Of a stretch of 20,000 bases of DNA, positions 1 through 20,000 are shown piece after piece. Within the stretch, counting starts at the first letter, position 1, and each line of letters opens with the position of its first letter. The stretch lies in NCBI RefSeq assembly GCF_001186125.1, contig NW_014040525.1:57238-77237 (forward strand). Reading direction: 5' to 3'. The translations under genes were made by a program, and so were the position numbers. The notes below the pieces were generated by a model, which was not told the origin of the DNA, did not search any database, and saw only the letters and a program-made list of their open reading frames with translations. The stretch is from Sphaeroforma arctica JP610 (taxonomy: Eukaryota).

Positions 1-1050
1 CTATCAACAAATCTATAGCGTTTTATTACTCTTTGGGTTGTCGACGATCTCTCATATGTCACTTGTGCACCATCCATACATTATGCAGTACGTTACAAGG
101 TGCATGATGTCTGGCATAAATCGGTTAAATTTTTAATTTAATTCACGGTCTCTGCATGACGTGCCACAGCAAGAGACGATCGCACCTTTGTCAAGCCGCA
201 TATTGCAATTCACCCCTTCTACTGCAAACTTTGGTATGTTACAAGCGGTTGTTTTATTTTTACATTTTGAGACGCGAAGACTTCAACACCAAGCCACATA
301 TGTGCTAGCGAGATATAGCATATTATCTATAGCCGGTGTCTCACTATCACGCCCATCCCATACTTCTAATATCAAATCAATTTTCAGTCGGTACTATCAG
401 GCTAGTTGCTTACCAATTCTCGCCATGTTATGCACCGACTGTGTTGATTAGCCGTCGAGGCTTTTTCAAAGTCTACCTCACAGCACATTCACAATATATT
501 GTTGTGACGCATTATTATAAAGATACCATATATCGCCATCATTTGCTAGTTACGGTGTAATTCCATGTCGTATGGTAGACGAGAATACTCGCCTGAAATT
601 TTTATCGGAATTGTTCAGTTGTTCAATAGTATTTTTATACCCATCTAAAAACGCCTGCCTGGTCTGGAAATACAAACGAACAACTGCAAGATACTTCCCG
701 CTCACAACCTAAACAACAACTCGTACCCCAAGTCCATATCAGAGCCCAACCCAAGCGGATGATGGCGGAAATATTCTTGCAGCCTCCTTCAAATCGGACC
801 AGCATTGCAAAGATTCAAAAGCATAGCAATAACCATAAACATTCAACGCATCGGTCCGCTTGGAGAACTCGCTACCCGGAAAAATCTAGTTTAAATCATA
901 GAGGGCACCTCTAGACGCACGTGTTCGGTACCACAAGGATGTGCCGTGTACTTCAGAACAAAGCCAATGGGCCGAAAACGCCAAGTTGATACAATAGTTC
1001 GCCTTTACTCTAATACTCCTGAAGCGTTGCACTTTGCCTCTCATGACTTC

Positions 1051-1346
1051 AGCGAGTGGGCCGGACGCGAATAAGCACGCGCGATCGTATTTACATGCCT
1101 TGAAAAATAGGCTCGCAAAATATCAGCGAGTGGGCCAAACGCGAATAAGCACGCGCGATCGTATTAATATGCCTTGAAAGATAGGCTCGCAAAATATCAG
1201 CGAGTGGGCCGAACGCGAAAAAGCACGCGCGATTATGTTTATATGCCTCGAAAGATAGGCTTGCAAAATATCAGCGAGTGGGCCGAACGCGAATAAGCAC
1301 GTGCGATCGTATTTATATGCCTTGAAACATAGGCTTGCAAAATATC
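1051..1346. repeat. Tandem minisatellite, 4 copies of a 74-bp unit
   Basis: Unit AGCGAGTGGGCCGAACGCGAATAAGCACGCGCGATCGTATTTATATGCCTTGAAAGATAGGCTCGCAAAATATC starts at 1051, 1125, 1199 and 1273; a few substitutions per copy, no spacers. Confidence 0.95.
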
Positions 1347-2154: not shown

Positions 2155-2655
2155 TCATGAGCTATCTTCGCTGCTGCTGCCATACCCACCCAACCCAGCC
2201 AATACATTACTGACTGCCGCCTCCGGTTTTTCAGACTTCTTCACAACTGCCGCCTCCGGTTTCTCAGACTTCCTCACAATACCCAACATAGCCCCTAAGT
2301 TAAACTTTTTCTTCATCACACTCTCCTTAGAACGAGGCGCATTGGTGCTCGCACTTACTGTAACAATCTCAGGTATTATGTCAAGCTCGCTGTGATCCGT
2401 AATAGTATGTATTGCCAACCCGGGTTTAGCCTTTTTGGTCTTCGGGTTATCTGATTGGCCAAAAACAGGCCTTTTCCGAACATTTGATTGGCCCTCGTCC
2501 GAGTCGGATTCTGCCAATCTCTTGACTTTAACAGGTACAGCTGGTACCACAATATTATCGGCGGCACCGTCTGTGGCGGAAGTGTCATCCCCGGCACCTG
2601 TACTGTTGAAGATCTTGGCAATCTCCTCTTCGTCCCTCTTTTCCTGGTCTTGCAA
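2155..2655 (-). CDS. YJU2: YJU2 last exon
   Basis: CATAG|TTG acceptor in phase 0; LQDQEKRDEEEIAKIF...LAGLGGYGSSSEDSS*; the LgxYxxSxxD tail is typical of the family. Confidence 0.82.
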   Translation of the reverse strand: MQDQEKRDEEEIAKIFNSTGAGDDTSATDGAADNIVVPAVPVKVKRLAESDSDEGQSNVRKRPVFGQSDNPKTKKAKPGLAIHTITDHSELDIIPEIVTVSASTNAPRSKESVMKKKFNLGAMLGIVRKSEKPEAAVVKKSEKPEAAVSNVLAGLGGYGSSSEDSS

Positions 2656-4567
2656 CTATGTGCGTGTGTGTGAAGGAGGGGGGAGAGACAAAGCCATAAG
2701 TCACAAGAGCATCGATTCAGCAACGGTACAATCATATCAAAGTATAGTATGCCCTCGCAAGCGTGAGATCATAAAGCAGGTACGAGTGTGTACTGCCAGT
2801 AAATGGTACAGCTTGTTTCATCACAATACAGTAAAAAAAGGGGCGAAGACTAAGGTACACCTTTAATCGCCTTCACCACACACACACGCGAGCGCATATA
2901 TTCAATATACGCAATCAAAACACAAACGTTAGCCTGCACATACCTCTTTGACCAGTGCATCGTTCTTCTGCTGAATCAATTCGTTGACATCTACGGCCGC
3001 ATTCCTGTCGTTCATGTCTCGGATCTCCTCGAGAGTATCCAGCATGTCCATCTCTTTCTTCGATTGCTTCGTTCTGTTCTCTAAGGCCTGCAAAATTTAT
3101 TATAACGGATAAATATTACTGTAAGTGGAAGATTATCATACCCAACATGTGCATCTCTTTCTTCGTTTGCTTCGTTCTGCTATCTAATGCCTCGGGATAC
3201 GTCAGTACAAATACCTGCTATCCAGAGTGTGATTTTTTTAATTAAATATCCTACTGTAATTCTGAAATTCGACCTTGGTATGCTTAGGTATATGTAAATA
3301 TGCATTAGTGTCATTTGTATATCACATTTACAACTGGTGTTCTCAGTAATGTGTCCTTACGCCTTTAACCTCACCGATATGCACGGTGACCACAAATATA
3401 CTACTGGAGTTGGTAGCGAAGTATGAACTCGATACAATTATCACTAAGGTCACTGTAAGCACAACTACAAAAAGAGAGGTGCAATAACACACAAAATATA
3501 GAGACAAGTTTTAATTGAAGTATGCAACCACGCACTTCTATCAACGTAATGTGCCATGCCCAATCTTGGGCGCACGATATACCTTCATTGCATTATTCTC
3601 CTCTTCATCTTCTTTCTTCTTCTTCTTAGCCTCCACTTCATCTTCAACTTCACGCCAGAGCTCGAAATTACCTAAATCGTGTAGAAGCGAGTAACCCAAT
3701 ATACAATTGAGTATGTAAGATTCTTGAATGGAAGGTATCAAAAGATTCAGTGCTATAAACATTTCGGAGCCTGAAGTCAATGCAGAGATCGACAACCAAA
3801 AGTCCATTGGCGGCCCCATCGAAGTGACTGCTAGGGATATAACTGAGTATAAAATCCAGGATGCAACGCACAACCACATTCATCAAACAAACTTCATAAC
3901 TACTTGAGGATGTGATATTTGTACTGTCATCAAATAAAAGACAAACAACTGTATACATAACACCAGAATATGCAATATACTAGTGTCGATGCATATAAAT
4001 ACACGCATACATAGATACCACTGTGGCTAGTAGTCTCCCAGAGGACAGCACATGTACATACAAACTGAAAAACGTACAAATATGATACATTATTCAAATG
4101 CAACTCATACATAAGTCGAGATTAATATATACACACACATACAGATGAAATGTAAGTATGTTTGTATGTATGTATGTATGCATGTATATACATATAANNN
4201 NNNNNNNNNNNNNNNNNNNNNNNNNNNNNNNNNNNNNNNNNNNNNNNNNNNNNNNNNNNNNNNNNNNNNNNNNNNNNNNNNNNNNNNNNNNNNNNNNNNN
4301 NNNNNNNNNNNNNNNNNNNNNNNNNNNNNNNNNNNNNNNNNNNNNNNNNNNNNNNNNNNNNNNNNNNNNNNNNNNNNNNNNNNNNNNNNNNNNNNNNNTA
4401 TATATATATATATCGCAGCTGAATTTGAATATACATTTCGTTCCAGATGCGAAAACGTTATCAACATTCGAACATACCTGGTCATTCTTCGGTTTCTTCT
4501 GACGAGGGATGATTGAAGGATCAAAATCCGGGGGGAAATACTTGTTCAGGACTTTACGTTCAGACAT
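2155..4567 (-). CDS. YJU2: Splicing factor YJU2/CCDC94 (CWC16 family), spliced gene; visible exons 4478-4567, 3583-3671, 2944-3087, 2155-2655
   Basis: N-terminus MSERKVLNKYFPPDFDPSIIPR is the family hallmark. Later exons give (R)NFELWRE...EEENNAMK | ALENRTKQSKKEMDMLDTLEEIRDMN, matching the conserved NPMKxLENRTxDSKxEM block. Visible junctions are GT-AG and in phase. Confidence 0.93.
2213..2278. repeat. 33-bp in-frame tandem duplication in the YJU2 last exon
   Basis: ACTGCCGCCTCCGGTTT(T/C)TCAGACTTC(T/C)TCACA x2, giving KSEKPEAAV twice. Confidence 0.9.
2944..3087 (-). CDS. YJU2: YJU2 internal exon (144 nt)
   Basis: TTTTGCAG|GCC; ALENRTKQSKKEMDMLDTLEEIRDMNDRNAAVDVNELIQQKNDALVKE; GAG|GTATGT. Not in the ORF track. 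Confidence 0.9.
3583..3671 (-). CDS. YJU2: YJU2 internal exon (89 nt)
   Basis: Acceptor TTAG|GT AAT TTC; encodes NFELWREVEDEVEAKKKKKEDEEENNAMK; donor AAG|GTATAT. Confidence 0.85.
4198..4398. other. Assembly gap (201 N) flanked by (TGTA)n and (TA)n microsatellites
   Basis: N run seen directly; simple repeats on both sides. Confidence 0.99.
4478..4567 (-). CDS. YJU2: YJU2 exon 1 (30 codons)
   Basis: ATG at 4567; MSERKVLNKYFPPDFDPSIIPRQKKPKNDQ followed by donor CAG|GTATGT at 4477. Confidence 0.92.
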
Positions 4568-4736
4568 ATTGCTAAGTCGGCTATGGTGATTTCTTGGAGA
4601 GAGTGGACTGAAAAAGTTGCCGTTGTGATTGCTACTCTACAATATATAGTCTATGCAACGTGGTCGAGAGTGCCCCGTGTGATCGTATGCAAATGTATGA
4701 AGTATGAGTATATGTATGTGTATTTACTACATTTAT

Positions 4737-7527: not shown

Positions 7528-7633
7528 TGTAGAAAAACGGCCTCCGGTCAGTCTAAAATATCAGGATCAAATGAGATAACACGTTGGTTAAGAAGATTGC
7601 AAGGACATACCGGACGTCCAAGTTAAGCACTGA

Positions 7634-9510
7634 AAGTTCCATATGTGTGCACTAGAGCAAGATTACGAGAAAAGGTTTGATAAAATCTATACCAAAGGAG
7701 ATGAACGTATATTTCAAACTGTTTATGTAAATGGATAAAAAGTTATAGCACCTATTGATCCGGGGGCTGATGTCTCTGCTGTCTCACGCCGAGTAGCCTA
7801 CGCTACAGGTATGGCTATCCATAACGAAACAACTAATTTAATCTTGGGAAATGGCAAAGTTACCACTTGCGAAGAAGCCATTGACTATGCACACATAATG
7901 TTGTCAGATAGAAGAGAAGTAAAGACTCACCTAATCGTTACTGACATGTATCAGAAATACGGTTTGATTATTGGTATGACTAATCTGCTCAGTTTAGATA
8001 TAACTCTCACTGGTCTGCCTAATGGGCTAGACCCAAATAAAGATCAGTCAGATGATAACATGTTAAAGATACCTAAACCTCCGAAAGGTGAAGCAAATGA
8101 TATGATTCTGTACTTTACCGATATAATTATGGACTTAATTATACAAAACAGAAAGATTGCAATAACCGACTGGTGTATGTCTAAGTTCTCTAGCGGGTAC
8201 GTTAAGCTTGACTTGACAAACGTCGACTTCTCTAAGTTAAAGTGTCCTTCACATAACTACGTGAGTTGGAGACACAAAGACGTTGTCAAACCCCAAATTG
8301 AAGATTGGTTAAAACAGGGTCTAATTGAAATCAATTATGATGCAACCCCAGTTAACTTAGCTCTCTTATCGGTCGATCAATATAGAGCTGATGGAACGTG
8401 TAGTAAAACAAGAGTAGTATTAAACCTGTCGCCAATCAATAAACTACTTCTGCAACATAGTTTTCCCTTACCAAAGATAAGCGAGATACTACGCAAAATG
8501 GAAGGTGCGACTATCTTTTCCAAAGTAGACTTAAAAGCTGCATTTCATCAATTACAAATTTTTGAGCCGCATAGGAAATACTTTTCCTTTACTTGGTAAG
8601 GTAAGAAGTACCACTTTAAAGGTGCACCTGAAGGCTTTCACATGTTACCTTCTTTCTTCCAATAAGTTATGATGGAACTATTTGCAGACCTGTCGGATAA
8701 CGTATCAGTATATCTAGATGATATAGTTATCTTTATAAAGACAGCACATGAACATGCTAAACTCGTTAAAAAAAGTCTTAAAGCGACTAACCCATGCCAA
8801 ACTTAAGATTAACGAGGACAAGTGTTCTTTTGCTAAAGATACTATACACTTACTTGGTTACGAGGTATCTGCAGCAGGGGTACAAATTGATCCTGGCAAG
8901 AAACAATTTCTGTTGGATTTATCAACACCGATTTCTGAAAGAGATGTGAACTCTGTGTGTGGGTTTGTTAACTTCTTCTCGGATTCGGTACCTCATCATT
9001 CTCATTACTTAAAGCCTTTCAGTCACCTACGGCTGCACAAAGGACCTTTGGGAAAGCTTTGGACTACGGAATGTGATGATGCATTCAAGCTAGTCAAAAA
9101 TAAAGTAGTGGACGCACCCATCATGCAATACCCTGTGGATGGCGTCCCATTCCGAGTAGCAACCAACGCTTCGGGTCGAGCGGTAGGTGGAGTGCTATAC
9201 CAAACGATCAATGGAAACCGCGCTACATACAATTCTTCAGCAAGAGTTATACTAAGAGTCAACGGAATTACCCTATCGTTAAACACGAGCTCCTTGCTTT
9301 AGTTACTGCGCTAAGACAGTTTAAAGACTACCTTTATGGAAGTTACTTCAGTGTCGCCTGTGATCAAAAGTATTTAACATATTTAAAGGACATGAACCCT
9401 GATTCACAGTTGGTGAGCCGCTGGCATGACATTATTGCTAAGTTCGCTTTTAGCATTACACACATACCAGGAATACATAATCATCTACCTGACATGCTCT
9501 CTTGACTTGT
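7634..9510 (+). pseudogene. X1 protease, reverse transcriptase and RNase H
   Basis: PR IDPGADVS (~7754); RT SKVDLKAAFHQ and YLDD at 8711; RH TNAS (D>N), HELLAL, CDQK, NHLPDMLS*. Stops at ~7736, 8597 and 9503; frameshifts at ~8770 and ~9218. Confidence 0.92.
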
Positions 9511-9547: not shown

Positions 9548-9960
9548 ACCGATTGGATGCTTAATAAGAAATGGTTTAATCTCGCTCAATCAAGATGGGG
9601 TTCATTTACTATTGATATGTTCGCCGCAGAACATAACAAACAGGTTTCTGACTATAGGTCGTTGACTCATCCTAAAGGTGATGCTTTTCAACTTGACTTA
9701 TCAAAGCATAATGCGTGGGCTAGCCCACCTTGGCAACTTATCGCACAGTTGTTGAACTATGTTAATATTACTAAATCTACCAATACGCTGTGTTGTCCCT
9801 TACGTAGCTCCGACCCATGGATACGTGATTAAATTAATATGATACAAGATGAGTCTATCTATGTCGACCGTGAAACCGACACGTTCTTGTATCAGGGATC
9901 CTATTCTATTAAGAAGATACCTTGGAAACATACCATCGTTTGTCGCATCGGTCCTGCAGG
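9548..9960 (+). pseudogene. X1 Dam-like DNA amino-methyltransferase domain (N6-adenine type; DIRS MT-like)
   Basis: TDWMLNKKWF...WGSFTIDMFAAEHN...DAFQLDLS...WASPPWQLI...LCCP...W; DMFA at 9614, SPPW at 9722-9733. Same frame as the RH C-terminus and the IN Zn finger; one internal TAA at 9830. Confidence 0.82.
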
Positions 9961-11341: not shown

Positions 11342-11364
11342 TAGGGTTTAGGGTTTCAGGGTTT
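11342..11364 (+). repeat. Short telomere-like tract TAGGG TTTAGGG TTTCAGGG TTT at the X1/W junction
   Basis: Seen directly; only about 3 units. Confidence 0.5.
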
Positions 11365-12900
11365 TATTTGAACTTATGAACCTACCGGATAACATTGATA
11401 TAATATTGGGAATGTATATTATGGGTGAGTTGGGATTAGGCTTAACCGGATTAGTATCTCCATTTCCAGAGATTAATCGTAATGTTATGAATGGACTACT
11501 GGAACCAATCAATATTCGAATGGCCCCAGACTTGTCCGAGCCAGGTGATAAACGCGCACGCCTATGCCAATACCTGAATGCTAATGACACTATTCTGGAT
11601 GGAGCTCGCTGCACACTCCCGGGTAGTGAGGTGTCACTCCCTATTCCTCGGGATAAACTCCTGGGCCTACGTCGGCAGACAAGAAATTTTGTATCTGACA
11701 AATACAAACCACATGTAACGAAACAAGTAGACAAATGGGGACACGAACTGGTCACCAATCGTCGAACATCGGCGTCGATCGTTAACCTTCCTTTGTTGGC
11801 AGTATCATCATTCACACCGTCGGGTGAACTTATTAAGGTGCGCGTGTGCTTGGACCTGCGGCAGATTAACGCTCTTATTCCGGGCGATCAGTTTATGCTT
11901 CCGAAGGTCAACGAAATCATCAGCAACTTGAAGGGCAAGCGTTACTACACCACGTTGGACTTATCGGCCGCGTACCATCGGTTACCGGTGCACGTCGATT
12001 CGCAGCACATGTTTTCGTTTACATGGAACAGTCAGCAGTACTCGTTTACGTCGGCTCCCTTTGTATTGACGACACTTACGTCACAATTTCAACGGACAAT
12101 TGGTAGTTTGATGGCAGGACTGGACGTGCAATGCTATGTTGATGATCTAATTATTGCATCGGACGATTACGAGGAGCACATTGCTATGGTTCAAGAGGTC
12201 ATTCGACGCTTGACGGAGAATAACTTCAAACTTAATCAGAAGAAATGTCACTTTGCGGTACGAGAGGTGATGATCCTGGGCAAGAAGATATCAGCTAAAG
12301 GCATTGACGTGGATCATGAGAAGCAGCAACGTTTAATTGACTGGCCAGTTCCAAGATGTCAAAGGAATATTGCCTCTGCGTTAGGATTAGCAAACTTTCT
12401 ACATGAGCATCTACCGAACATTGCACACAAGGTAGCTCCACTCCGAACCTTTTCTAAACTTAAGCCAAGGGAGTCCAGTGGGGATCGCTGGAAGCCAGAA
12501 CATCAATTGGCGTGGGACCAGATGAAAGCGGCTATCGTGTCGGTAGTCAGGTTGAACTTTCCTGTTGATGGTGTACCACTTGAGTTAGAGACTGATGCAA
12601 GCGATTATGGAATTGGTGGCGCATTGTTTCGATTGATTGACGGGCGCAAACATTACCTGATGTTCTTCTCGAAAACTCTCAACAAGGCACAACAGACATA
12701 TGCAACCCCGATGAAAGAAATATTAGCACTTACCTATGCTTTGGTCCACTTGCATGATCATATCATTGGACAGCGGTTTATTGTACACACCGACCATAAG
12801 GCTCTCATATACATGAACACTCAGCTGAAGCTGAATAGTATATTGCAGCGATGGCATCATATTATTGCACAATTCAATTTTACTATTACACATATACCTG
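11365..12900 (+). mobile_element. Gypsy element W: uninterrupted pol fragment (PR C-terminus, RT, RNase H), truncated at both ends
   Basis: 509-aa ORF: DIILGM, RVCLDLRQIN, TTLDLSAAYH, YVDD, ETDASDYGIG, KEILAL, HTDHKAL, FTITHIP; it ends exactly where the X2 LTR begins. Confidence 0.93.
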
Positions 12901-13502
12901 TGTAGAAATACGGCCTCCGGTCAGTCTAAGATATCAAGATCAAATGAGATAACGCATTGGTTTTTATTTGTATTTAAAATAATTTAATACAAGTTCTTTT
13001 TCAAATATTTACAAAGTGTTCTAAATTCACTTTGATGGCTCCAATAGCCTGAGTATTTGGTATGACTCATTTACTTGGACCTATTTGAGACGATAGTAGA
13101 TGCAAGATATCATAAACTAAATTTTATAATCTCTGAACTACTACTTACAGGTTTTGGTCTTCCCGCCAATATCCAAAATCCAATAAGTCTTTTTCTTTTT
13201 TTAACTTTTCTTCAGATGGAACTTTATTTATATTAGCTAATGTATTAACTTGACTTATGTTCTTAGGTGTCTAACTACAAATTAGACATGTGGTCATGAA
13301 CACTTAGTACTTCTAGTGAAAATTATTCAATAAAGATCAGCTAGAGGTACGTCCTGTGTGATCGAGGATATTAAGGCTCTTACCAAGAGGCAGTCCCGAT
13401 CATTCTTACACAAGCTACCACTGCTAAATCCTAACTGACTTAAATTGTATCTTAGTTTATATAACATAGTTTAAAACATAGAAATATACGTCGAAGCTTA
13501 CA
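12901..13502 (+). mobile_element. 5' LTR of element X2 (602 bp)
   Basis: TGTA...TACA termini. The left edge is confirmed by the copy starting at 7528 and the right edge by the inverted copy ending at 19927. AATAAA at 13329. Confidence 0.85.
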
Positions 13503-13600
13503 TATTTTTCAGTTATTTAGTAGTACCGTAGTGTACTGCTTCTAGACTGTCTAACAATTGCTTACTATCCAGCGACAGGACTGTAAGTATTCTATACTAC

Positions 13601-13756
13601 CTCATAGTGGCTAATGCTACCCTAAATTTAGCTACACGCTAGTTACTATACCTAGACTTTATTAATATTCCTATTCTTCTCATAGTGGCTAATACTACCC
13701 TAAAGTTAGCTACACGCTAGTTACTATACCTAGACTTTATTAATATTCCTATTCTT
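13601..13756. repeat. 2 x 78-bp direct tandem repeat in the X2 leader, just upstream of the gag ATG
   Basis: CTCATAGTGGCTAAT...CCTATTCTT at 13601 and 13679, two mismatches. Confidence 0.95.
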
Positions 13757-13767
13757 GAGCTATTACT

Positions 13768-15767
13768 ATGATTAAAGGAAATTCTAAAGGCAAGGGAGCC
13801 GCCAGCTCTAAGCCTGCTAAGCCTGTTGAGGTTCCTGAGGTTACTGGGGACGTTGGTCCGTCTGGTACTGAGCCTGCCGTTGAAGCTGTAGAGGAAGCCG
13901 TTTCTGAGCTTGGTTCTGAGGAAAACTCTGAGGATGATTCGTCGGACCCTAAAGCCTTGGAAGTGGAGGTCTCAACTGCCGCGGAAAGGCTCGCCAGCGT
14001 CCGTGTGTCTCCTAGTAGTGCAGCCCGGGGCCTCAGCTCGCAATCTGACCGCGAAAAGTCAGATATTGGAATGGCTATATCTTCTGAACAAGTGGAGGAA
14101 TCGTCTCGAGATCGACGGTTTATTACTACTAAAAGTCGGCCTAATCCGCCAACTAACAATTATGGTGGCGTTCCATTTCGTGAAATTTCATTGAATACCT
14201 CGCCACTGAACGTTGGGGCAGAAGACGCAAATGTTGGGGACGCCATAACTTGACAACGAGTGGTTGGATCTTCTCAATCTCGACGCCATTTGAACCGTAA
14301 AGATAAGCTTTTAAAGGAGCTAGCCGCTGCCACAGCTTCTGACCCTTCGATCATATCCCACGTGGCCGATATTCTTCGTACCGACGAAAAAATTTCGAGC
14401 CGGGTTTCAATTCTGAGACCCACTGGTTTACCAGCCAGCAGGGTTACTGCCGAGCCAATTACCGCTGGTGAAGTGGGTAAAAGCTCAAGATTTAATCTCT
14501 ATAGCATGGAAGCTACAATCGACCATCCTCTCGACAAACCTAACCCTGTCAGAGGCTATGATCGTATGGAAATCGAAGAGGCTTACCACCCTCATAACAT
14601 CGATCTTCATTTACCATCTAACCCTGGTAATCACGACTTTGGTAATCGTTATACCAGTACCGCACTAGAGAGTACCCACTCTAGCTCTGAAGACGAGGAA
14701 GTGAGAACCAGACACCATCGTCTCAGGCTATTACGTTCTGGTATGCAAGTCCTTGAGGATTGTCTATTGAATGACTCTGACCTTGACGATAAGGAAGCGG
14801 ATAACATTCGCTATCTAATCGATAACAAGAAAAAGGAGATAGACTCCATCTTGGCACTAGCTGCCCGTAGCACTGAACGTGAGCCTCGTGAACGCTTCAA
14901 ACCAAGCTTATAAAGCAGCTAGGTAACGCGAAGGCTGAGGTCGATTTCTCTACTAATTAGAGTACAGTGGAGACACTGAAGGCTTTTGACCAACTTAAGG
15001 AGTCTGCCAGCCTTAAGGATAAGCAGATGATGAATGCCTTTATTCATTTCTGTGAGTCAGAAGAATGGAAAACTATCTTGAAGGCCCACGAGCCCAACTG
15101 GAAAGCCCTACCTTGGCGCCAGTTGCGTGAGAATATACTTAACGCCTTCTTTGAAAATGCACGTGACCGTGACCTTCTAGAGTCTCGCAAGTCCGTTGCG
15201 ACCGATACTACTATTCGAGGTGCTCTAGCTCATATGACACATATGAACACTCGGATGGGAGGTTGTACCTATACTGGCGAATATTTATTAATTTGTCAGA
15301 TGATGGAGACTCTGGGGGCTAACTTTTTTAAAAAGGTCAATGATGATATCATCGCCTATGGTGATTTGCGATATATGCCTTGGTCTGTCTTTGAAAAGAT
15401 AGTTCAAAAGCATACCAATCCATCTACTAGAGTACTTAGTACCGCGAGCTTTACCCAGCCCGCTAAGCGTACCGCGATAGAGAATAACACTGCGCGTAAT
15501 ACTAAAAAACCTTGCACTACTGCCGGAGGTGGTAAAGGCTCTACTTCTACTGAACCAAAGGGTGAAAGGAAGGAGAGATTACCTTGCAAGAAGTGTGGTT
15601 ACAACCTCACTAAACTTGATGACAAGTGGAATGGTAAGCACGACTCTGTTAAGTGTGCACCAGGCAAGCCAAACTTTGGACACTATATGAAAGAGTGTAC
15701 TACTTGCAAACGTACTAACGGTTGGCACAAAGATGATTGCAAGGACATACCGGACGTTCAAGTTTAA
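13768..15767 (+). pseudogene. X2 gag (about 660 codons; 2 stops and 1 frameshift)
   Basis: ORFs 13768-14253 and 14260-14913 share a frame, then 14967-15767 follows. Lies between the LTR and protease; ends in two Cys/His knuckles. Confidence 0.8.
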
Positions 15768-16124
15768 GCACTATCAGTTCCATATGTGTGCACTAGAGCA
15801 AGATTATGAGAAAAAGTTTAATAAAATCTATACCAAAGGAGATGAACGTATATTTCAAATCGTTTATGTAAATGGATAAAAAGTTATAGCACCTATTGAC
15901 CCAGGGGCTGAAGTCTCTGATATCTCACGCCGAGTAGTTTACGCTACAGATATGGCTATCCATAACGAAACAATTAATTTAATCTTGGGAAATGGCAAAG
16001 TTACCACTTGCGAAGAAGCCATTGACTATGCACACATAATGTTGTCAGATAGAAGAGAAGTAAAGACTCACCTAATCGTTTCTGACATGTATCAGAAATA
16101 CGATTTAATTATTGGTATGACTAA
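15766..16124 (+). pseudogene. X2 protease, truncated
   Basis: VYVNG*KVIAPIDPGAEVS...YDLIIGMT; about 94% identical to X1 by manual count (22 substitutions and 1 indel over ~394 nt). Confidence 0.88.
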
Positions 16125-17969
16125 GGGTTTGGTACGAAGCGTGATAACATATTCGGTAAATGGTTATGTATCCCTGGTAGATGTTTGATATCGAAATGAA
16201 ACTTTAATATCGTATCATACCATTGGCTCAGTAATTGAGAGTCTGGCTTCATCTCTTTCATATATTGAAGGGACTTCTGATCACACATCAGCGTAAAAGC
16301 TGTTCCATATAGGTAATCGCGGAAGTGTGTTAAAGCTGCTACTATGACTAGTAGCTCTTGCTTCACAGTTGGATAATTCAATTGTGATGCATTCATTGCT
16401 CGGCTAAAGAATTATATATACCTAGGTTTATTATCTATAACCTGATATAATACTCCTCCTAAGGCTAAGTCGGAGGCGTCCGTTGCTATTTCAAACGACA
16501 CGCCATCGACTGGTCCTTGTACAACTGGGGCTTGTTGGACTGGGTGTTTGAGCGCTTTAAATGCGTCATCACACTCTTTAATCCACAAGTCTCCTAGTTT
16601 GTCTTTATGACATATTAAGTGTCCAAAGGTTCAGGTGTTCCAGCTTACCGGGGTCGATTTTATTACTTTCCCCAGATATACGATAGCCTAAGAGCTGTAT
16701 TTCGCTCATGGCGAAGTGACATTTCTTCTCGTTCATCTTGAAGTTTTGTTCGTTGAGTCTCTGAAGGACTCGCCTGACTAATGCGGTATGTTCGCCCTTA
16801 GTTTTAGAAAAGATGACTATGTCATCTATATAGACTTGCACGTTCGGCATGTCAGCAAACATTTCCTCCATTACTTGTTGGAAGAATGCTGGTAAGGAGT
16901 GCAACCCGAAAGGTGCACCTCTAAACCTGTATTGTTTACCTTTCCAGGTAAAACCAAAGTACTTACACTGGGGTTCGTAAATTTGCATTTGATGATACCC
17001 CTTTGTTAGGTCTATGAATGTAAACACCGTAGCACCTTCCATTCGTCTCAGTAACTCGTTTATACGAGGGAGATGGAAACTATGAGTCGGCAATAACTTA
17101 TTTATTGGATTCATATACTGACATACTCTGACTTTCTTAAATGTTCCGTCAGAGTTGTGTTGATCAACTGCCAATAATGCTAAGGTAACTGAGGGCTGTT
17201 GGTAATTGATTTCGATTACCCTATCGGATATCCATTTATCGACTTGTTCTTTAACTACAGCTTTGTGTCTCCAAGAAACATAGTTTCTTGAAGGACATTT
17301 GAGCTTAGTAAAGTCTACCTTGGTTAAGTCAAGGCTGACGTGTCCGTCGTTGAAGCAGAATATCGCCCAGTCGGTTATTTTTATCTTCTTATTTACTAAT
17401 ATACGATCCATTATCTTATCGGCAAAGCCAGGAATTAATTCCTCGACTATGTCCGATGGTGGTGTATATGGTTTTAGACAATTATCGTCTGACTGATCCT
17501 TTAATGGATCTATGTTGTTGGGTAAGCCTGTTACGGTTATCCCTCACGTGAGCAAATCGCTCATTCCGACTATAATGTCGTACTTCTGTGACATCTTAAC
17601 GATCCCAGCTTGAGTCGTGATATTTCTATCATCGGCCAGGGAGATATTAACATCTGTGGCCATGGTATCACACTTAGAAGTTTTGTCAACTGCTAAAATT
17701 AGGTGAGGGGTTTGAGTTCGCCTTTCAATGTCTATCATTAATGCAAAGCGGTCGGATATACATGAAATTTCTGAACCAGGATCAATCAATGCAAGTGCTT
17801 TATTTCCGTTGCAATATATAGGGATTTTTACACGCTCATCTAAGGAGTCGCTGTATTTTCTTTGTAACGATTGTACCTGGTAGTACTTTCACTCTAACTT
17901 AATGTCGGGCTTATTGTCGCAAGACTTGGCGTGATAGCCATTGGTCTTCTCACACTTGTCACACTTAGT
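16125..17969 (-). mobile_element. Gypsy element Z (diverged relative of X): gag knuckle, PR, RT, RNase H; truncated at both ends
   Basis: CDKCEKTNGYHAKSC; LIDPGSEIS; IDLTKGYHQ; YIDD; ATDASDLALGG; KQELLV; NHLPNMLSR. Shares LKCPSxNYVSWRHK with X1. Stops, plus a deletion/frameshift near 16610. Confidence 0.92.
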
Positions 17970-18008
17970 AAGAAAGCGTCGTTGTCGTCGACTCTCACGT
18001 GTTTGAAT

Positions 18009-18152
18009 CCGTTTGCGATATGCGGGCACGACGTTGTGGTCGTCAAAGGCATCGGCTGTCACCCATGTAGGAGATCCTTCCAACCAACGTACCAAATATT
18101 CCGACTGTTGAGTCGCCTCATTATGACGGTGCGATATGATATGTCGAAATGT
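18009..18152 (-). other. Chromodomain at the integrase C-terminus of Y
   Basis: FRHIISHR...EYLVRWLEGSPTWVTADAFDDHNVVPAYRK matches chromodomain motifs (IlxHR, eYLVkW, TWxxxxxf, vxxY). Confidence 0.85.
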
Positions 18153-19449
18153 CGACCCGCCCTCTCTCCATAGAGATTCATCAAGTGGTGGTTCCGTAAC
18201 CAGATGTACAAGCCGAATAATCTCCACATTCTCGGGTCGGTCTCTGAGCTCAGGCGGCTTGCTGCCATCCTTTGCTCGTAGATGGTAACTCTAATTTTCC
18301 CGACTATGAATCACGTACGGACCAAGCAGTGGTTTCATGGCTTTGGTCGTTGCTCCCTGAGCGAGTATCATGACGACGTCCCCCGTCTTAAATTCGATCA
18401 AATCAAATTTACGCATTTGATCCGAAGCCTCTGCCATGGCATCAGTATACTTAATCGGTTTCTGATGAAGTTTTGGTAGGATAGTCTTCTCCAAATCATC
18501 CAGCCTCTTTAACCATGCATCATTCGTGGTAGGAATATGACCAGGTAAGTCATCAGTCATGATTGCAAACGGGACATGTCGCCGACCAAAATAAACGCTG
18601 AATGGTGCTGACTTGTGACGTCGTGATATCCGAAGGTTCTGGTATAACATAGTAAACGGCGGACGTTCATCCCACAACTCCGGACAACCAACACACAATG
18701 CGCGCACGCATTTGTGGATTTCCTTATGTCGGCGCTCCGCCGCGCCCAACGTCTGCGGGTGGTATGGTTGGGATGTCTTGTGCATAATGCCCAACGCTCG
18801 TGTGATGGATTTGACAATATTGTTTACAAATTTGGTGCCCTCGTCACTCTGAATCTTACGAGGAATTCTATGCTCACCAAACACTGACACAAACTCTGCC
18901 ACCACCTGTCTTTGCATCCTTCGCAGGTATCGCCCGTAGAATAGAGTAGCCCGACGCCACATCAAGCACATGTAAAATAAATTTGGTTCCTTTAGTGGAT
19001 GTGACCACCATAGAAATGAGATCCATTTGTATGTGATCCCAGGGATATCAAGCGGTAATATTCATTAAAGGATGAAAACCTTTCTTCATTGTATCGTTGC
19101 CCAAGCATGTGCGACATAACTTGCGGACTTCTTCTGTGAATGGAAGCATCTGGTCCCAGCTATGTCCATCGTCGCGCATCTGTTGTACTGTCACTGCTGG
19201 AGCCGGATGTCCTTGTTCGTGAAATTGACATGTCAACTGTACACGACGGTTCGCTTCCTCGTGCCCTGGATGATTCATCACTGTAGCACCCGCACATATC
19301 TCAGGAATTTGTACAGCGGTCTGTCGCGTTCGTTACGTCATAACCGGTTGTGCCCAATCTTCCTGATAACGTGTACCAGCGTCTTCACATACAGGTACCT
19401 CCAAGCCTACGTCACACCAAAATGATGGATTGACTTTGTACCCAGATGG

Positions 19450-19855
19450 AGGGCCAATACGTACCACGATGGTATGCTCCCACGGGTATTTACCACAAGC
19501 TTGTGAGCCGTGATTCAAGAATGCGTGAGCCGTACGTGGGATAAGTAGCGGGTCTGCTTGCATCATCGATAGAAGTAAAGGGAACCATGGCGCACGTGTG
19601 TTCAACGGTAAACATATTGTTGCCGACGCCTTGTCCTTCAACACATTACGCAACACCTTACGTATATGACGCCAAGGTGGGCTCATCCATGCGTTGTATT
19701 TACTCCAGTCAAACTTAAACGCCCCGCCATCCTTGCCGTACGACCAGTATTGGCGAAGCTGAGCGTTATGACTCGAGGCAAAAGCGTCGACGTCGTTTAG
19801 TCCAAAGTGCTTCTGGATCTGGTCAAAGAAATCCGGAAACAACTTCCAACATGAC
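19450..19855 (-). CDS. Y Dam-like DNA amino-methyltransferase domain (no internal stop)
   Basis: WKLFPDFF...FGLNDVDAFASSHNAQL...GAFKFDWS...WMSPPWRHIRKVL...ATICLP...PWF; SPPW at 19672-19683. Confidence 0.85.
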
Positions 19856-19926
19856 GTATAGAACACCACGGGGTAATTGATATCCGCCGTACCCTCATAA
19901 ACACGACTCCACATGTCTGGCAACTG

Positions 19927-20000
19927 TGTAAACTTCGATGGATATTTCTGTGTTTTAAATTATGTTATATAAAGTAAGATACAATTTAAGTCAGTTAGGG
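19927..20000 (-). mobile_element. 3' end of an X-family LTR, continuing beyond the window
   Basis: The reverse complement matches 13430-13502 and ends ...GTTTACA adjacent to Y coding sequence. Confidence 0.9.

What the first reader, a model, noticed from the sequence alone, without database searches (positions are those of the whole stretch)
17970..19926. Second, diverged element with the same MTase plus a chromodomain (writer and reader in one polyprotein)
Seen: Y has RH tail-MTase-IN-chromodomain order. Its MTase is open and aligns with X1 (DAFA/DMFA, NAWMSPPW/NAWASPPW, KYPWEHTIVVRIGP/KIPWKHTIVCRIGP), while linkers and integrase are highly diverged. Inference: retention of motifs across two distant families implies an old, selected architecture, i.e. 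a clade of MTase-carrying chromoviruses that may couple chromatin-targeted integration with self-methylation.
Basis: partly seen in the sequence, partly recalled or inferred. Interest (0 to 1): 0.85.

Follow-up and report, generated by a model that had tools for sequence, protein, structure and literature searches.

The report
Dam-carrying retrotransposon with hidden chromodomain
This is a broken back half of a gypsy-type jumping gene that carries a phage-like adenine-methylase domain and an atypical chromodomain. The kind was described in a 2026 preprint, which reports no chromodomain in the lineage this copy likely belongs to, and the domain likely cannot read methylated histones in the usual way.

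Summary
Minus strand 19926-17977 encodes RNase H tail, Dam methylase (Pfam E 1e-8), H2C2, integrase core and a chromodomain. The chromodomain is below Pfam's cut-off but is confirmed by profile, PDB and fold tests. The copy is dead (3 stops, 1 frameshift) and is cut at both ends. Its RT-RNase H half is most likely element W at 11352-12900. Intact single-ORF relatives have the same order, and RT and Dam trees agree, so the architecture is old and conserved. The methylase is more conserved than the integrase (40% vs 29% against X1).

The open methylase frame is expected by chance (p about 0.24-0.30). The shared SPPW is not the family state, because other Y-family contigs read NPPW. The 'reader' keeps only 1 of 3 methyl-lysine cage residues.

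Dam-bearing LTR elements, including chromodomain-bearing ones and a Sphaeroforma lineage, were described in a May 2026 preprint. That preprint says the ichthyosporean lineage lacks chromodomains; here 10 of 10 tested tails of the clade are chromodomain-like, 2 of them weakly. Verdict: a variant of a known kind that offers a modest correction to the literature.

The parts
19903..19926 (-). Last 8 codons of RNase H of element Y; 5' break point
   Evidence: Aligns with the RNase H tail of X1 and P0002; P0128 and contig loose ends carry the upstream RNase H
19447..19851 (-). Dam-like (PF05869) adenine methyltransferase domain; catalytic motif at 19683-19672 reads SPPW here, NPPW in most other family contigs
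   Evidence: Pfam E 1.1e-8; 45% to P0002 and 40% to X1; family letter at 19682
19333..19335 (-). Premature TAA in the methylase-integrase linker
   Evidence: sense codon in all X1 depth and 89% of X11 depth
19105..19221 (-). Integrase H2C2 zinc finger
   Evidence: Aligned with the Pfam-annotated H2C2 of relatives, z 25 to P0002
18570..19050 (-). Integrase catalytic core, with a TGA at 19050-19048 and a frameshift near 18905
   Evidence: Pfam rve E 8.6e-6; one-base indel in other contigs
18156..18569 (-). Integrase C-terminal region (GPY/SH3-like), with a TAG at 18293-18291
   Evidence: 39/115 identical to P0002, z 33; sense codon in all laid contigs covering 18293
18009..18155 (-). Divergent chromodomain; keeps the W45-equivalent (18086-18084), has Ser at the Y24 position and a shortened loop without Y48
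17977..18008 (-). Arg-rich tail; 3' break point, a few codons before the family's stop
   Evidence: Sequence; loose ends at 17977 in 5 and 3 contigs
19927..19999 (-). 3' end of an LTR of family Z abutting Y
   Evidence: 92% match to 13430-13502 in reverse; ends in TACA
11352..12900 (+). Element W: protease end, RT and RNase H; most likely the front half of the Y family, cut in the RNase H tail
   Evidence: Pfam; contig joint 12856/19920 in 3 of 4 runs and similar depth; P0128 bridges W tail and Y start; trees
12901..13502 (+). LTR of family Z (TGTA...TACA) abutting W
16125..17976 (-). Element V: gag zinc knuckle, protease, RT and RNase H of the X1-related high-copy group, joined to Y's 3' end; not part of Y
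   Evidence: Pfam; loose ends at 17976 in 41 contigs; groups with X1 at 100/99
9551..9958 (+). Dam-like domain of element X1, the comparison copy (one internal stop)
   Evidence: Pfam E 4.2e-6 for its first part; alignments

Best explanation
Y is a decayed, doubly truncated 3' half of a Ty3/gypsy retrotransposon with a Dam methylase between RNase H and integrase and a divergent chromodomain at the integrase end; intact relatives likely methylate adenines in their own new DNA and likely use the chromodomain for chromatin tethering without the usual methyl-lysine cage. Shown: the domains and their order, the lesions, intact single-ORF relatives, the RT clade, and the loss of two cage residues. 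Inferred: W is the front half of the same family; one family-Z insertion in the RNase H tail plus an inversion put the halves on opposite strands; the host is Sphaeroforma or a close relative. Inferred mechanism, following the preprint's model: the polyprotein is packaged and cleaved, the Dam domain puts 6mA on the reverse-transcribed DNA, and host AMT1 keeps the mark after integration so the new copy stays transcribable. The chromodomain and its Arg-rich tail would bind chromatin or nucleic acid rather than H3K9me. Writer and reader would be two separate functions, not a mark and its reader.
For: Dam above the Pfam cut-off. P0002 and P0003, the top 2 of 154 hits for W, are intact PR-RT-RH-Dam(NPPW)-H2C2-rve polyproteins with the same kind of tail. 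W groups with them at 100/97 and Y's integrase at 89/79. A 13-row clade of the window's three RTs and ten Dam-bearing polyproteins has 99/96 support, and its subgroups recur in the Dam tree. Chromodomain: a profile of six independent retrotransposon chromodomains scores Y's tail 25.2 bits against 11.5 for the best of 900 shuffles; hhalign 95.9% and 98.6%; all 35 PDB hits at E<=1 are chromodomain proteins; predicted three strands plus helix, pLDDT 75; best VIA match is a chromodomain at Z 8.3, rmsd 1.7 over 57 residues. Decay: 33 of the 40 listed differences from other contigs change the protein, against 72% expected without selection. Host: the only near-length homolog is a Sphaeroforma arctica protein, 73% and 67% identical over two segments. 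The preprint (whole text read) reports more 6mA and expression at DAM-LTRs in S. arctica.
Against: No methylase activity is shown; the preprint's expression of eukaryotic Dam domains in dam-minus E. coli did not raise 6mA. No LTR, primer site or target-site duplication of the Y family is in the window, and the W and Y flanks show no clean duplication. The integrase tree support for Y with P0002 is not starred (89/79), nor is the Dam clade (92/90). Foldseek gave no match at E<=0.001 and Pfam Chromo is below cut-off. The laid runs lack the window's own letter at many sites, so they may come from another strain or species, and 'private to this copy' could mean 'private to this strain'. Only 40 of 178 differences were shown.
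Confidence: 0.72

Rival explanations
1. The Dam domain is conserved for a job other than methylating the element's DNA, such as binding or modifying the RNA genome or an RNA-DNA hybrid inside the particle. The 6mA on these elements is written by the host enzyme because they are transcribed.
For: Negative E. coli assay in the preprint. Degenerate motifs persist in relatives: P0010 lacks the PP motif yet aligns at z 22, and 39 of 151 hits read FPPF. A faint PCIF1-family score, E 0.046, is only a hint.
Against: NPPW or NPPF in 87 of 151 relatives, including the Y family contigs and X1's closest intact relative P0125. The preprint finds the 6mA enrichment specific to Dam-bearing LTRs regardless of age or length.
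Confidence: 0.2
2. One reading: the chromodomain is a classical methyl-lysine reader that steers integration to heterochromatin, coupled to self-methylation.
For: The fold and the central Trp are kept. Five of 10 clade tails keep an aromatic at the first cage position. Four Dam-bearing relatives outside the 13-row clade have chromodomains above the Pfam cut-off. MAGGY's chromodomain binds H3K9me2/3 (PMC3350952, passages).
Against: Y and P0002/P0003 have Ser at the Y24 position, and all 10 clade tails lack the Y48 equivalent and have a shorter loop. The same paper calls these residues essential for the pocket. The best PDB sequence matches are cpSRP43 chromodomains.
Confidence: 0.1
3. The arrangement is an artefact of nesting or assembly: methylase, integrase and chromodomain come from different elements.
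For: The window is a patchwork with several junctions and an N gap. No listed contig spans the Y-V junction or the whole stretch.
Against: P0001 runs from methylase into H2C2; contigs span integrase to chromodomain, e.g. 18101-18446; intact single-ORF relatives have the same order. Only the outer junctions at 19927 and 17976 remain unverified.
Confidence: 0.03
4. The SPPW motif marks a switch to N4-cytosine methylation.
For: Both window copies read SPPW. SPPY is typical of N4C methylases (PMC8885841, passages).
Against: Y-family contigs read Asn. X1's nearest intact relative reads NPPW. Only 1 of 151 relatives has SPPW. The X1 family's own letter was not tested with reads.
Confidence: 0.03

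Closest known systems
Ichthyosporean DAM-LTR lineage (Fernandez-Moreno et al., bioRxiv 10.64898/2026.05.21.726589; whole main text read, figures and supplements not seen)
   Same: Ty3/gypsy pol with a PF05869 Dam domain; the lineage is reported in Sphaeroforma arctica, where a copy of the Y family is annotated (P0001); NPP motif in the family.
   Different: The preprint says this lineage lacks chromodomains. Here Y and nine relatives have a chromodomain-like tail, and none of them reaches Pfam's cut-off. I could not see the preprint's sequences, so identity of the two sets is inferred.
Chlorophyta DAM-chromovirus-like clade and EpiLTRs (same preprint)
   Same: Dam and chromodomain in one LTR polyprotein, that is the 'writer plus reader' idea.
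   Different: Different hosts and, per the preprint, separate Dam captures. EpiLTRs also carry a cytosine methylase, for which no Pfam match was seen in Y or P0002/P0003.
Group II chromodomains of plant chromoviruses (PMC3350952, passages)
   Same: Loss of Y24 and usually Y48 with W45 kept; partner unknown.
   Different: That paper reports group II only in plant gypsy elements. Here the same loss occurs in a separate RT clade, most likely convergently (inference).
DIRS retrotransposons with a methyltransferase domain (preprint introduction; PMC3783388, search listing only)
   Same: Same Dam family placed after RNase H.
   Different: DIRS use a tyrosine recombinase; Y has a DDE integrase, and W has a gypsy-type RT and RNase H.

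Membership tests
DAM-LTR retrotransposon | PF05869 Dam domain in pol | tested here: met
   35.4 bits against a cut-off of 28.1
DAM-LTR retrotransposon | DDE integrase rather than tyrosine recombinase | tested here: met
   rve E 8.6e-6; 64/158 identical to the integrase core of P0002
DAM-LTR retrotransposon | Ty3/gypsy-type RT linked to the Dam domain | tested here: met
   W RT and RNase H, linked to Y by P0128 and contig joints; intact relatives. The link within this locus is inferred.
DAM-LTR retrotransposon | Asn-Pro-Pro catalytic motif | tested here: met
   Met for the family and for P0002/P0003; this copy itself has Ser
DAM-LTR retrotransposon | Own LTRs and target-site duplication | not testable with these tools
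   Both ends of the family are missing from the window and no genome is held
DAM-LTR retrotransposon | Raised 6mA on insertions; methylase activity | not testable with these tools
   Needs modified-base long reads or an assay
Ichthyosporean DAM-LTR lineage | Ichthyosporean host | tested here: inconclusive
   Closest named homolog is from Sphaeroforma arctica; no host gene was tested
Ichthyosporean DAM-LTR lineage | Dam groups with the preprint's Pirum, Abeoforma and Sphaeroforma sequences | not testable with these tools
   The preprint's sequences are in supplements that are closed
Ichthyosporean DAM-LTR lineage | Lacks a chromodomain (as described in the preprint) | tested here: not met
   Chromodomain present. 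Either the description missed it or Y is a variant.
Chromovirus | Chromodomain at the integrase C-terminus (definition in PMC3248453, passages) | tested here: met
Chromovirus | RT falls in the classical chromovirus clade | tested here: inconclusive
   The clade lies in a separate 26-row group (100/100), apart from the Cryptococcus, Trichosporon and Batrachochytrium rows. No curated reference set was available, and treating those rows as classical chromoviruses is recalled.
Group I (classical) chromodomain | Aromatic cage Y24, W45, Y48 | tested here: not met
   1 of 3 kept in Y; positions as defined in PMC3350952
DIRS retrotransposon | Tyrosine recombinase as the integrating enzyme | tested here: not met
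   A DDE integrase follows the methylase; no recombinase match among 14 element ORFs scanned

The most novel reading that the evidence does not exclude
The ichthyosporean DAM-LTRs are a clade of chromodomain-bearing gypsy elements whose chromodomain lost its methyl-lysine cage as the Dam domain was gained. It now steers integration away from heterochromatin toward active, 6mA-rich chromatin, where the self-written adenine mark is kept by host AMT1, so targeting and self-methylation form one strategy.
Probability: 0.15. Interest if true: 0.65.

Novelty: new variant of a known kind. Interest (0 to 1): 0.33.

Why it matters
The class is in print, so the element itself is not a discovery. What is added is small and testable. 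A lineage described as chromodomain-free likely has a chromodomain that standard Pfam thresholds miss, and its cage is remodelled like plant group II domains. That makes Dam plus chromodomain the likely usual state of these elements. It also raises a concrete question in a culturable animal relative with 6mA maps: where do these elements insert, and what does the cage-less domain bind?

Tried and rejected
No whole genome is held, so copy number and LTRs could not be counted directly. Word-based search for longer homologs of the methylase: 0 of 170 candidates. PDB sequence searches with the methylase alone (13 hits, all E>=0.72 and unrelated) and with a 4-sequence profile (0 hits at E<=1) found nothing. 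A single-sequence fold of the methylase was poor (pLDDT 41) and was not searched. A single-sequence PDB search with the chromodomain gave only E 0.16. Metagenome scan: 1 of 242 candidate stretches passed, and it is a GC-rich locus with unrelated bacterial-looking ORFs; I rejected it as chance. Viral contigs: 0 of 52. No RNA holder was listed on record, which says nothing on expression. Source names for P0001-P0010 could not be looked up. The AU test did not reject a single clade including P0010 (p 0.23), so one versus several Dam captures is open. Rejected: the open methylase frame as evidence of selection (chance 0.24-0.30); V as Y's own RT (different depth class, loose ends at the junction and different tree position); the N4-cytosine reading of SPPW. 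Earlier-findings look-ups by place and by sequence were empty. A Pfam scan of the other window ORFs was not obtained.

Full report
Observation. The minus strand from 19926 to 17977 reads, in order, eight codons of RNase H tail, a methylase, an H2C2 finger, an integrase core, an integrase C-terminal region, a chromodomain-like stretch and an Arg-rich tail. Pfam gives Dam at 35.4 bits (cut-off 28.1), rve at E 8.6e-6 and Chromo at only 14.7 bits (cut-off 25.1). Against X1 the methylase core is 54/134 identical, the integrase core 43/147 and H2C2 13/59, and both linkers score like shuffles.

State of this copy. It has three stops (19335, 19050, 18293) and a frameshift near 18905. With four lesions in about 650 codons, a 197-codon frame stays open by chance with p 0.24-0.30. 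Contigs of two public runs show sense codons at 18293 (all depth in both) and 19335 (100% and 89%), a one-base indel at 18905 in 1 and 2 contigs, and Asn instead of Ser in the catalytic motif (94% and 100% of depth; 12 and 9 contigs). The 19050 stop was not among the 40 of 178 differences shown. Of those 40, 31 are missense, 2 are stops and 7 are silent, against 72% protein-changing expected without selection; all 7 in the methylase are missense. This copy is decaying neutrally. At many sites no contig carries the window's letter, so the runs may be another strain or species.

Anatomy of the locus. Y's 5' side is the end of an LTR of another family, Z (92% to 13430-13502; the LTR is 12901-13502, TGTA...TACA). 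At 17976 Y is joined to V, a gag-knuckle, protease, RT and RNase H fragment with much higher summed contig depth; contigs of both families run on differently at that point. Y's missing front half is most likely W (11352-12900, plus strand), which is cut in the RNase H tail by the start of LTR Z. W and Y have similar depth, one contig in each of 3 of 4 runs joins 12856 to 19920 on opposite strands, and P0128 (82% to Y) begins with a W-like RNase H tail and continues into Y's first residues. The simplest history (inferred) is one Z insertion into the RNase H tail followed by an inversion. No clean target-site duplication is seen.

Relatives and host. The only near-length homolog of the methylase among 13 candidates is a Sphaeroforma arctica protein that runs from the methylase start into H2C2, so the host is likely Sphaeroforma or close to it. 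The top 2 of 154 hits for W are intact 1288-residue polyproteins, PR-RT-RH-Dam(NPPW)-H2C2-rve, with a tail like Y's. An unfiltered search found 2322 relatives of the methylase at E<=0.001 and listed 150. I scanned 27 of these, chosen mainly for length: 12 have RT-RH-Dam-integrase order and 4 have a chromodomain above cut-off. Motifs among 151 of 152 proteins with a Dam hit: NPPW 47, NPPF 40, FPPF 39, none found 12, SPPW 1, others 12.

Trees. In an RT-RNase H tree of 36 selected rows, W pairs with P0002 (99/96) inside a 13-row clade (99/96) that also holds V, X1 and nine more Dam-bearing polyproteins. It lies within a 26-row group (100/100) with chromodomain-bearing elements, with and without Dam (earlier trees). 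Y's integrase groups with P0002/P0003 at 89/79. The Dam tree of 51 rows recovers the same subgroups, at 92/90 for the clade. The architecture is therefore inherited as a unit. One versus several Dam captures in the wider group is open (p-AU 0.23).

The chromodomain. A profile of six independent retrotransposon chromodomains scores Y's tail at 25.2 bits; the best of 900 shuffles scores 11.5. Profile-profile probabilities are 95.9% for three tails and 98.6% for ten. All 35 PDB hits at E<=1 for the three-sequence profile are chromodomain proteins. The Atlas lists Chromo for 24 of 30 hits, with a recognition score just under its guide value. The model has three strands and a helix at pLDDT 75. Foldseek's rows are chromo or chromoshadow domains but none reaches E 0.001. 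VIA's best match is a chromodomain at Z 8.3, rmsd 1.7 over 57 residues. In a leave-one-out test on ten tails that I picked by alignment (eight from the RT clade, two without RT), all ten beat 300 shuffles, eight clearly and two weakly; five clade rows are cut before this region. None of the ten reaches Pfam's cut-off. Of the cage residues Y24, W45 and Y48 (PMC3350952, passages), Y keeps only the Trp. All ten lack the Y48 equivalent, and five of ten lack an aromatic at Y24. A methyl-lysine reader role is therefore doubtful (inference).

What is known. bioRxiv 10.64898/2026.05.21.726589 (whole main text read; figures and supplements not seen, and they bear on lineage membership) describes Dam in LTR retrotransposons. 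It reports that 30.9% of Dam-bearing elements are chromodomain LTRs, a chlorophyte DAM-chromovirus clade, and an ichthyosporean lineage in Pirum, Abeoforma and S. arctica that 'lacks chromodomains'. It finds more 6mA and expression at these elements in S. arctica, and no activity in E. coli. Its domain calls used E 1e-5, which Y's chromodomain (E 0.029) would fail. Six literature searches listed no paper whose title or abstract reports a chromodomain in this lineage. In PMC4007536 (passages) 'methyl' does not occur, and in PMC3248453 (passages) 'methyltransferase' does not occur.

Mechanism. Shown: domains, order, conservation, intact relatives, loss of the cage. Inferred, following the preprint's model: the methylase rides in the particle and marks the new DNA with 6mA, which host AMT1 maintains, and the chromodomain with its basic tail tethers integrase to chromatin by another surface. 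I put the identity of the element at about 0.9 and the self-methylation step at about 0.6-0.7. The main rival is a non-DNA or non-catalytic role for the Dam domain.

Verdict. Real, and a variant of a described kind. The added value is the overlooked, cage-less chromodomain in what is likely the ichthyosporean DAM-LTR lineage. Interest 0.33.

Noticed in passing
Proteins P0151 and P0231 (hits, not in the window): Ty1/copia-type polyproteins with a Dam domain (NPPF) between integrase and RT. 'copia' and 'Ty1' occur 0 times in the preprint's main text, though its Chloro-Ochrophyta clade is described as Dam flanked by integrase and RT. In the Dam tree they nest among gypsy Dam domains. One search listed no paper on this.
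   Followed up: partly
window 9599-9727 (X1 methylase): X1 also reads SPPW with the same AGC codon as Y, although its nearest intact relative P0125 has NPPW.
   Followed up: partly
window 11342-11364: About three copies of TAGGGTT, telomere-like, at the junction between X1's truncated integrase and W.
   Followed up: no
window 12900, 16125, 19926: W, V and Y all break within a few codons of the RNase H tail, W and Y against LTR Z ends; this may be one insertion plus an inversion, or a preferred break site.
   Followed up: partly
window 7528-7589 and 7590-7983: The start of LTR Z is joined directly to the gag end (92% and 94% to 12901-12962 and 15730-16124): X1 is an internally deleted copy of family Z.
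   Followed up: partly
window 12901-17976: Families Z and V have roughly 10 to 50 times the summed contig depth of W and Y, so they are likely the dominant Dam-bearing families; P0125, their intact relative, has a very degenerate chromodomain-like tail.
   Followed up: partly
Protein P0010: A gypsy polyprotein with a degenerate Dam (no PP motif) and a canonical chromodomain, outside the 13-row clade.
   Followed up: partly
Proteins P0157 and P0160: Gypsy polyproteins with an endonuclease/phosphatase domain and Dam placed before the RT.
   Followed up: no
window 2155-4570, minus strand: An intron-rich host gene whose first exon looks like the splicing factor Yju2/CCDC94 (name recalled, not tested), with an N gap at about 4198-4398.
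   Followed up: no
window 1049-1346 and 13601-13756: Tandem arrays of 4 x 74 nt and 2 x 78 nt, the latter in the leader of element Z.
   Followed up: no
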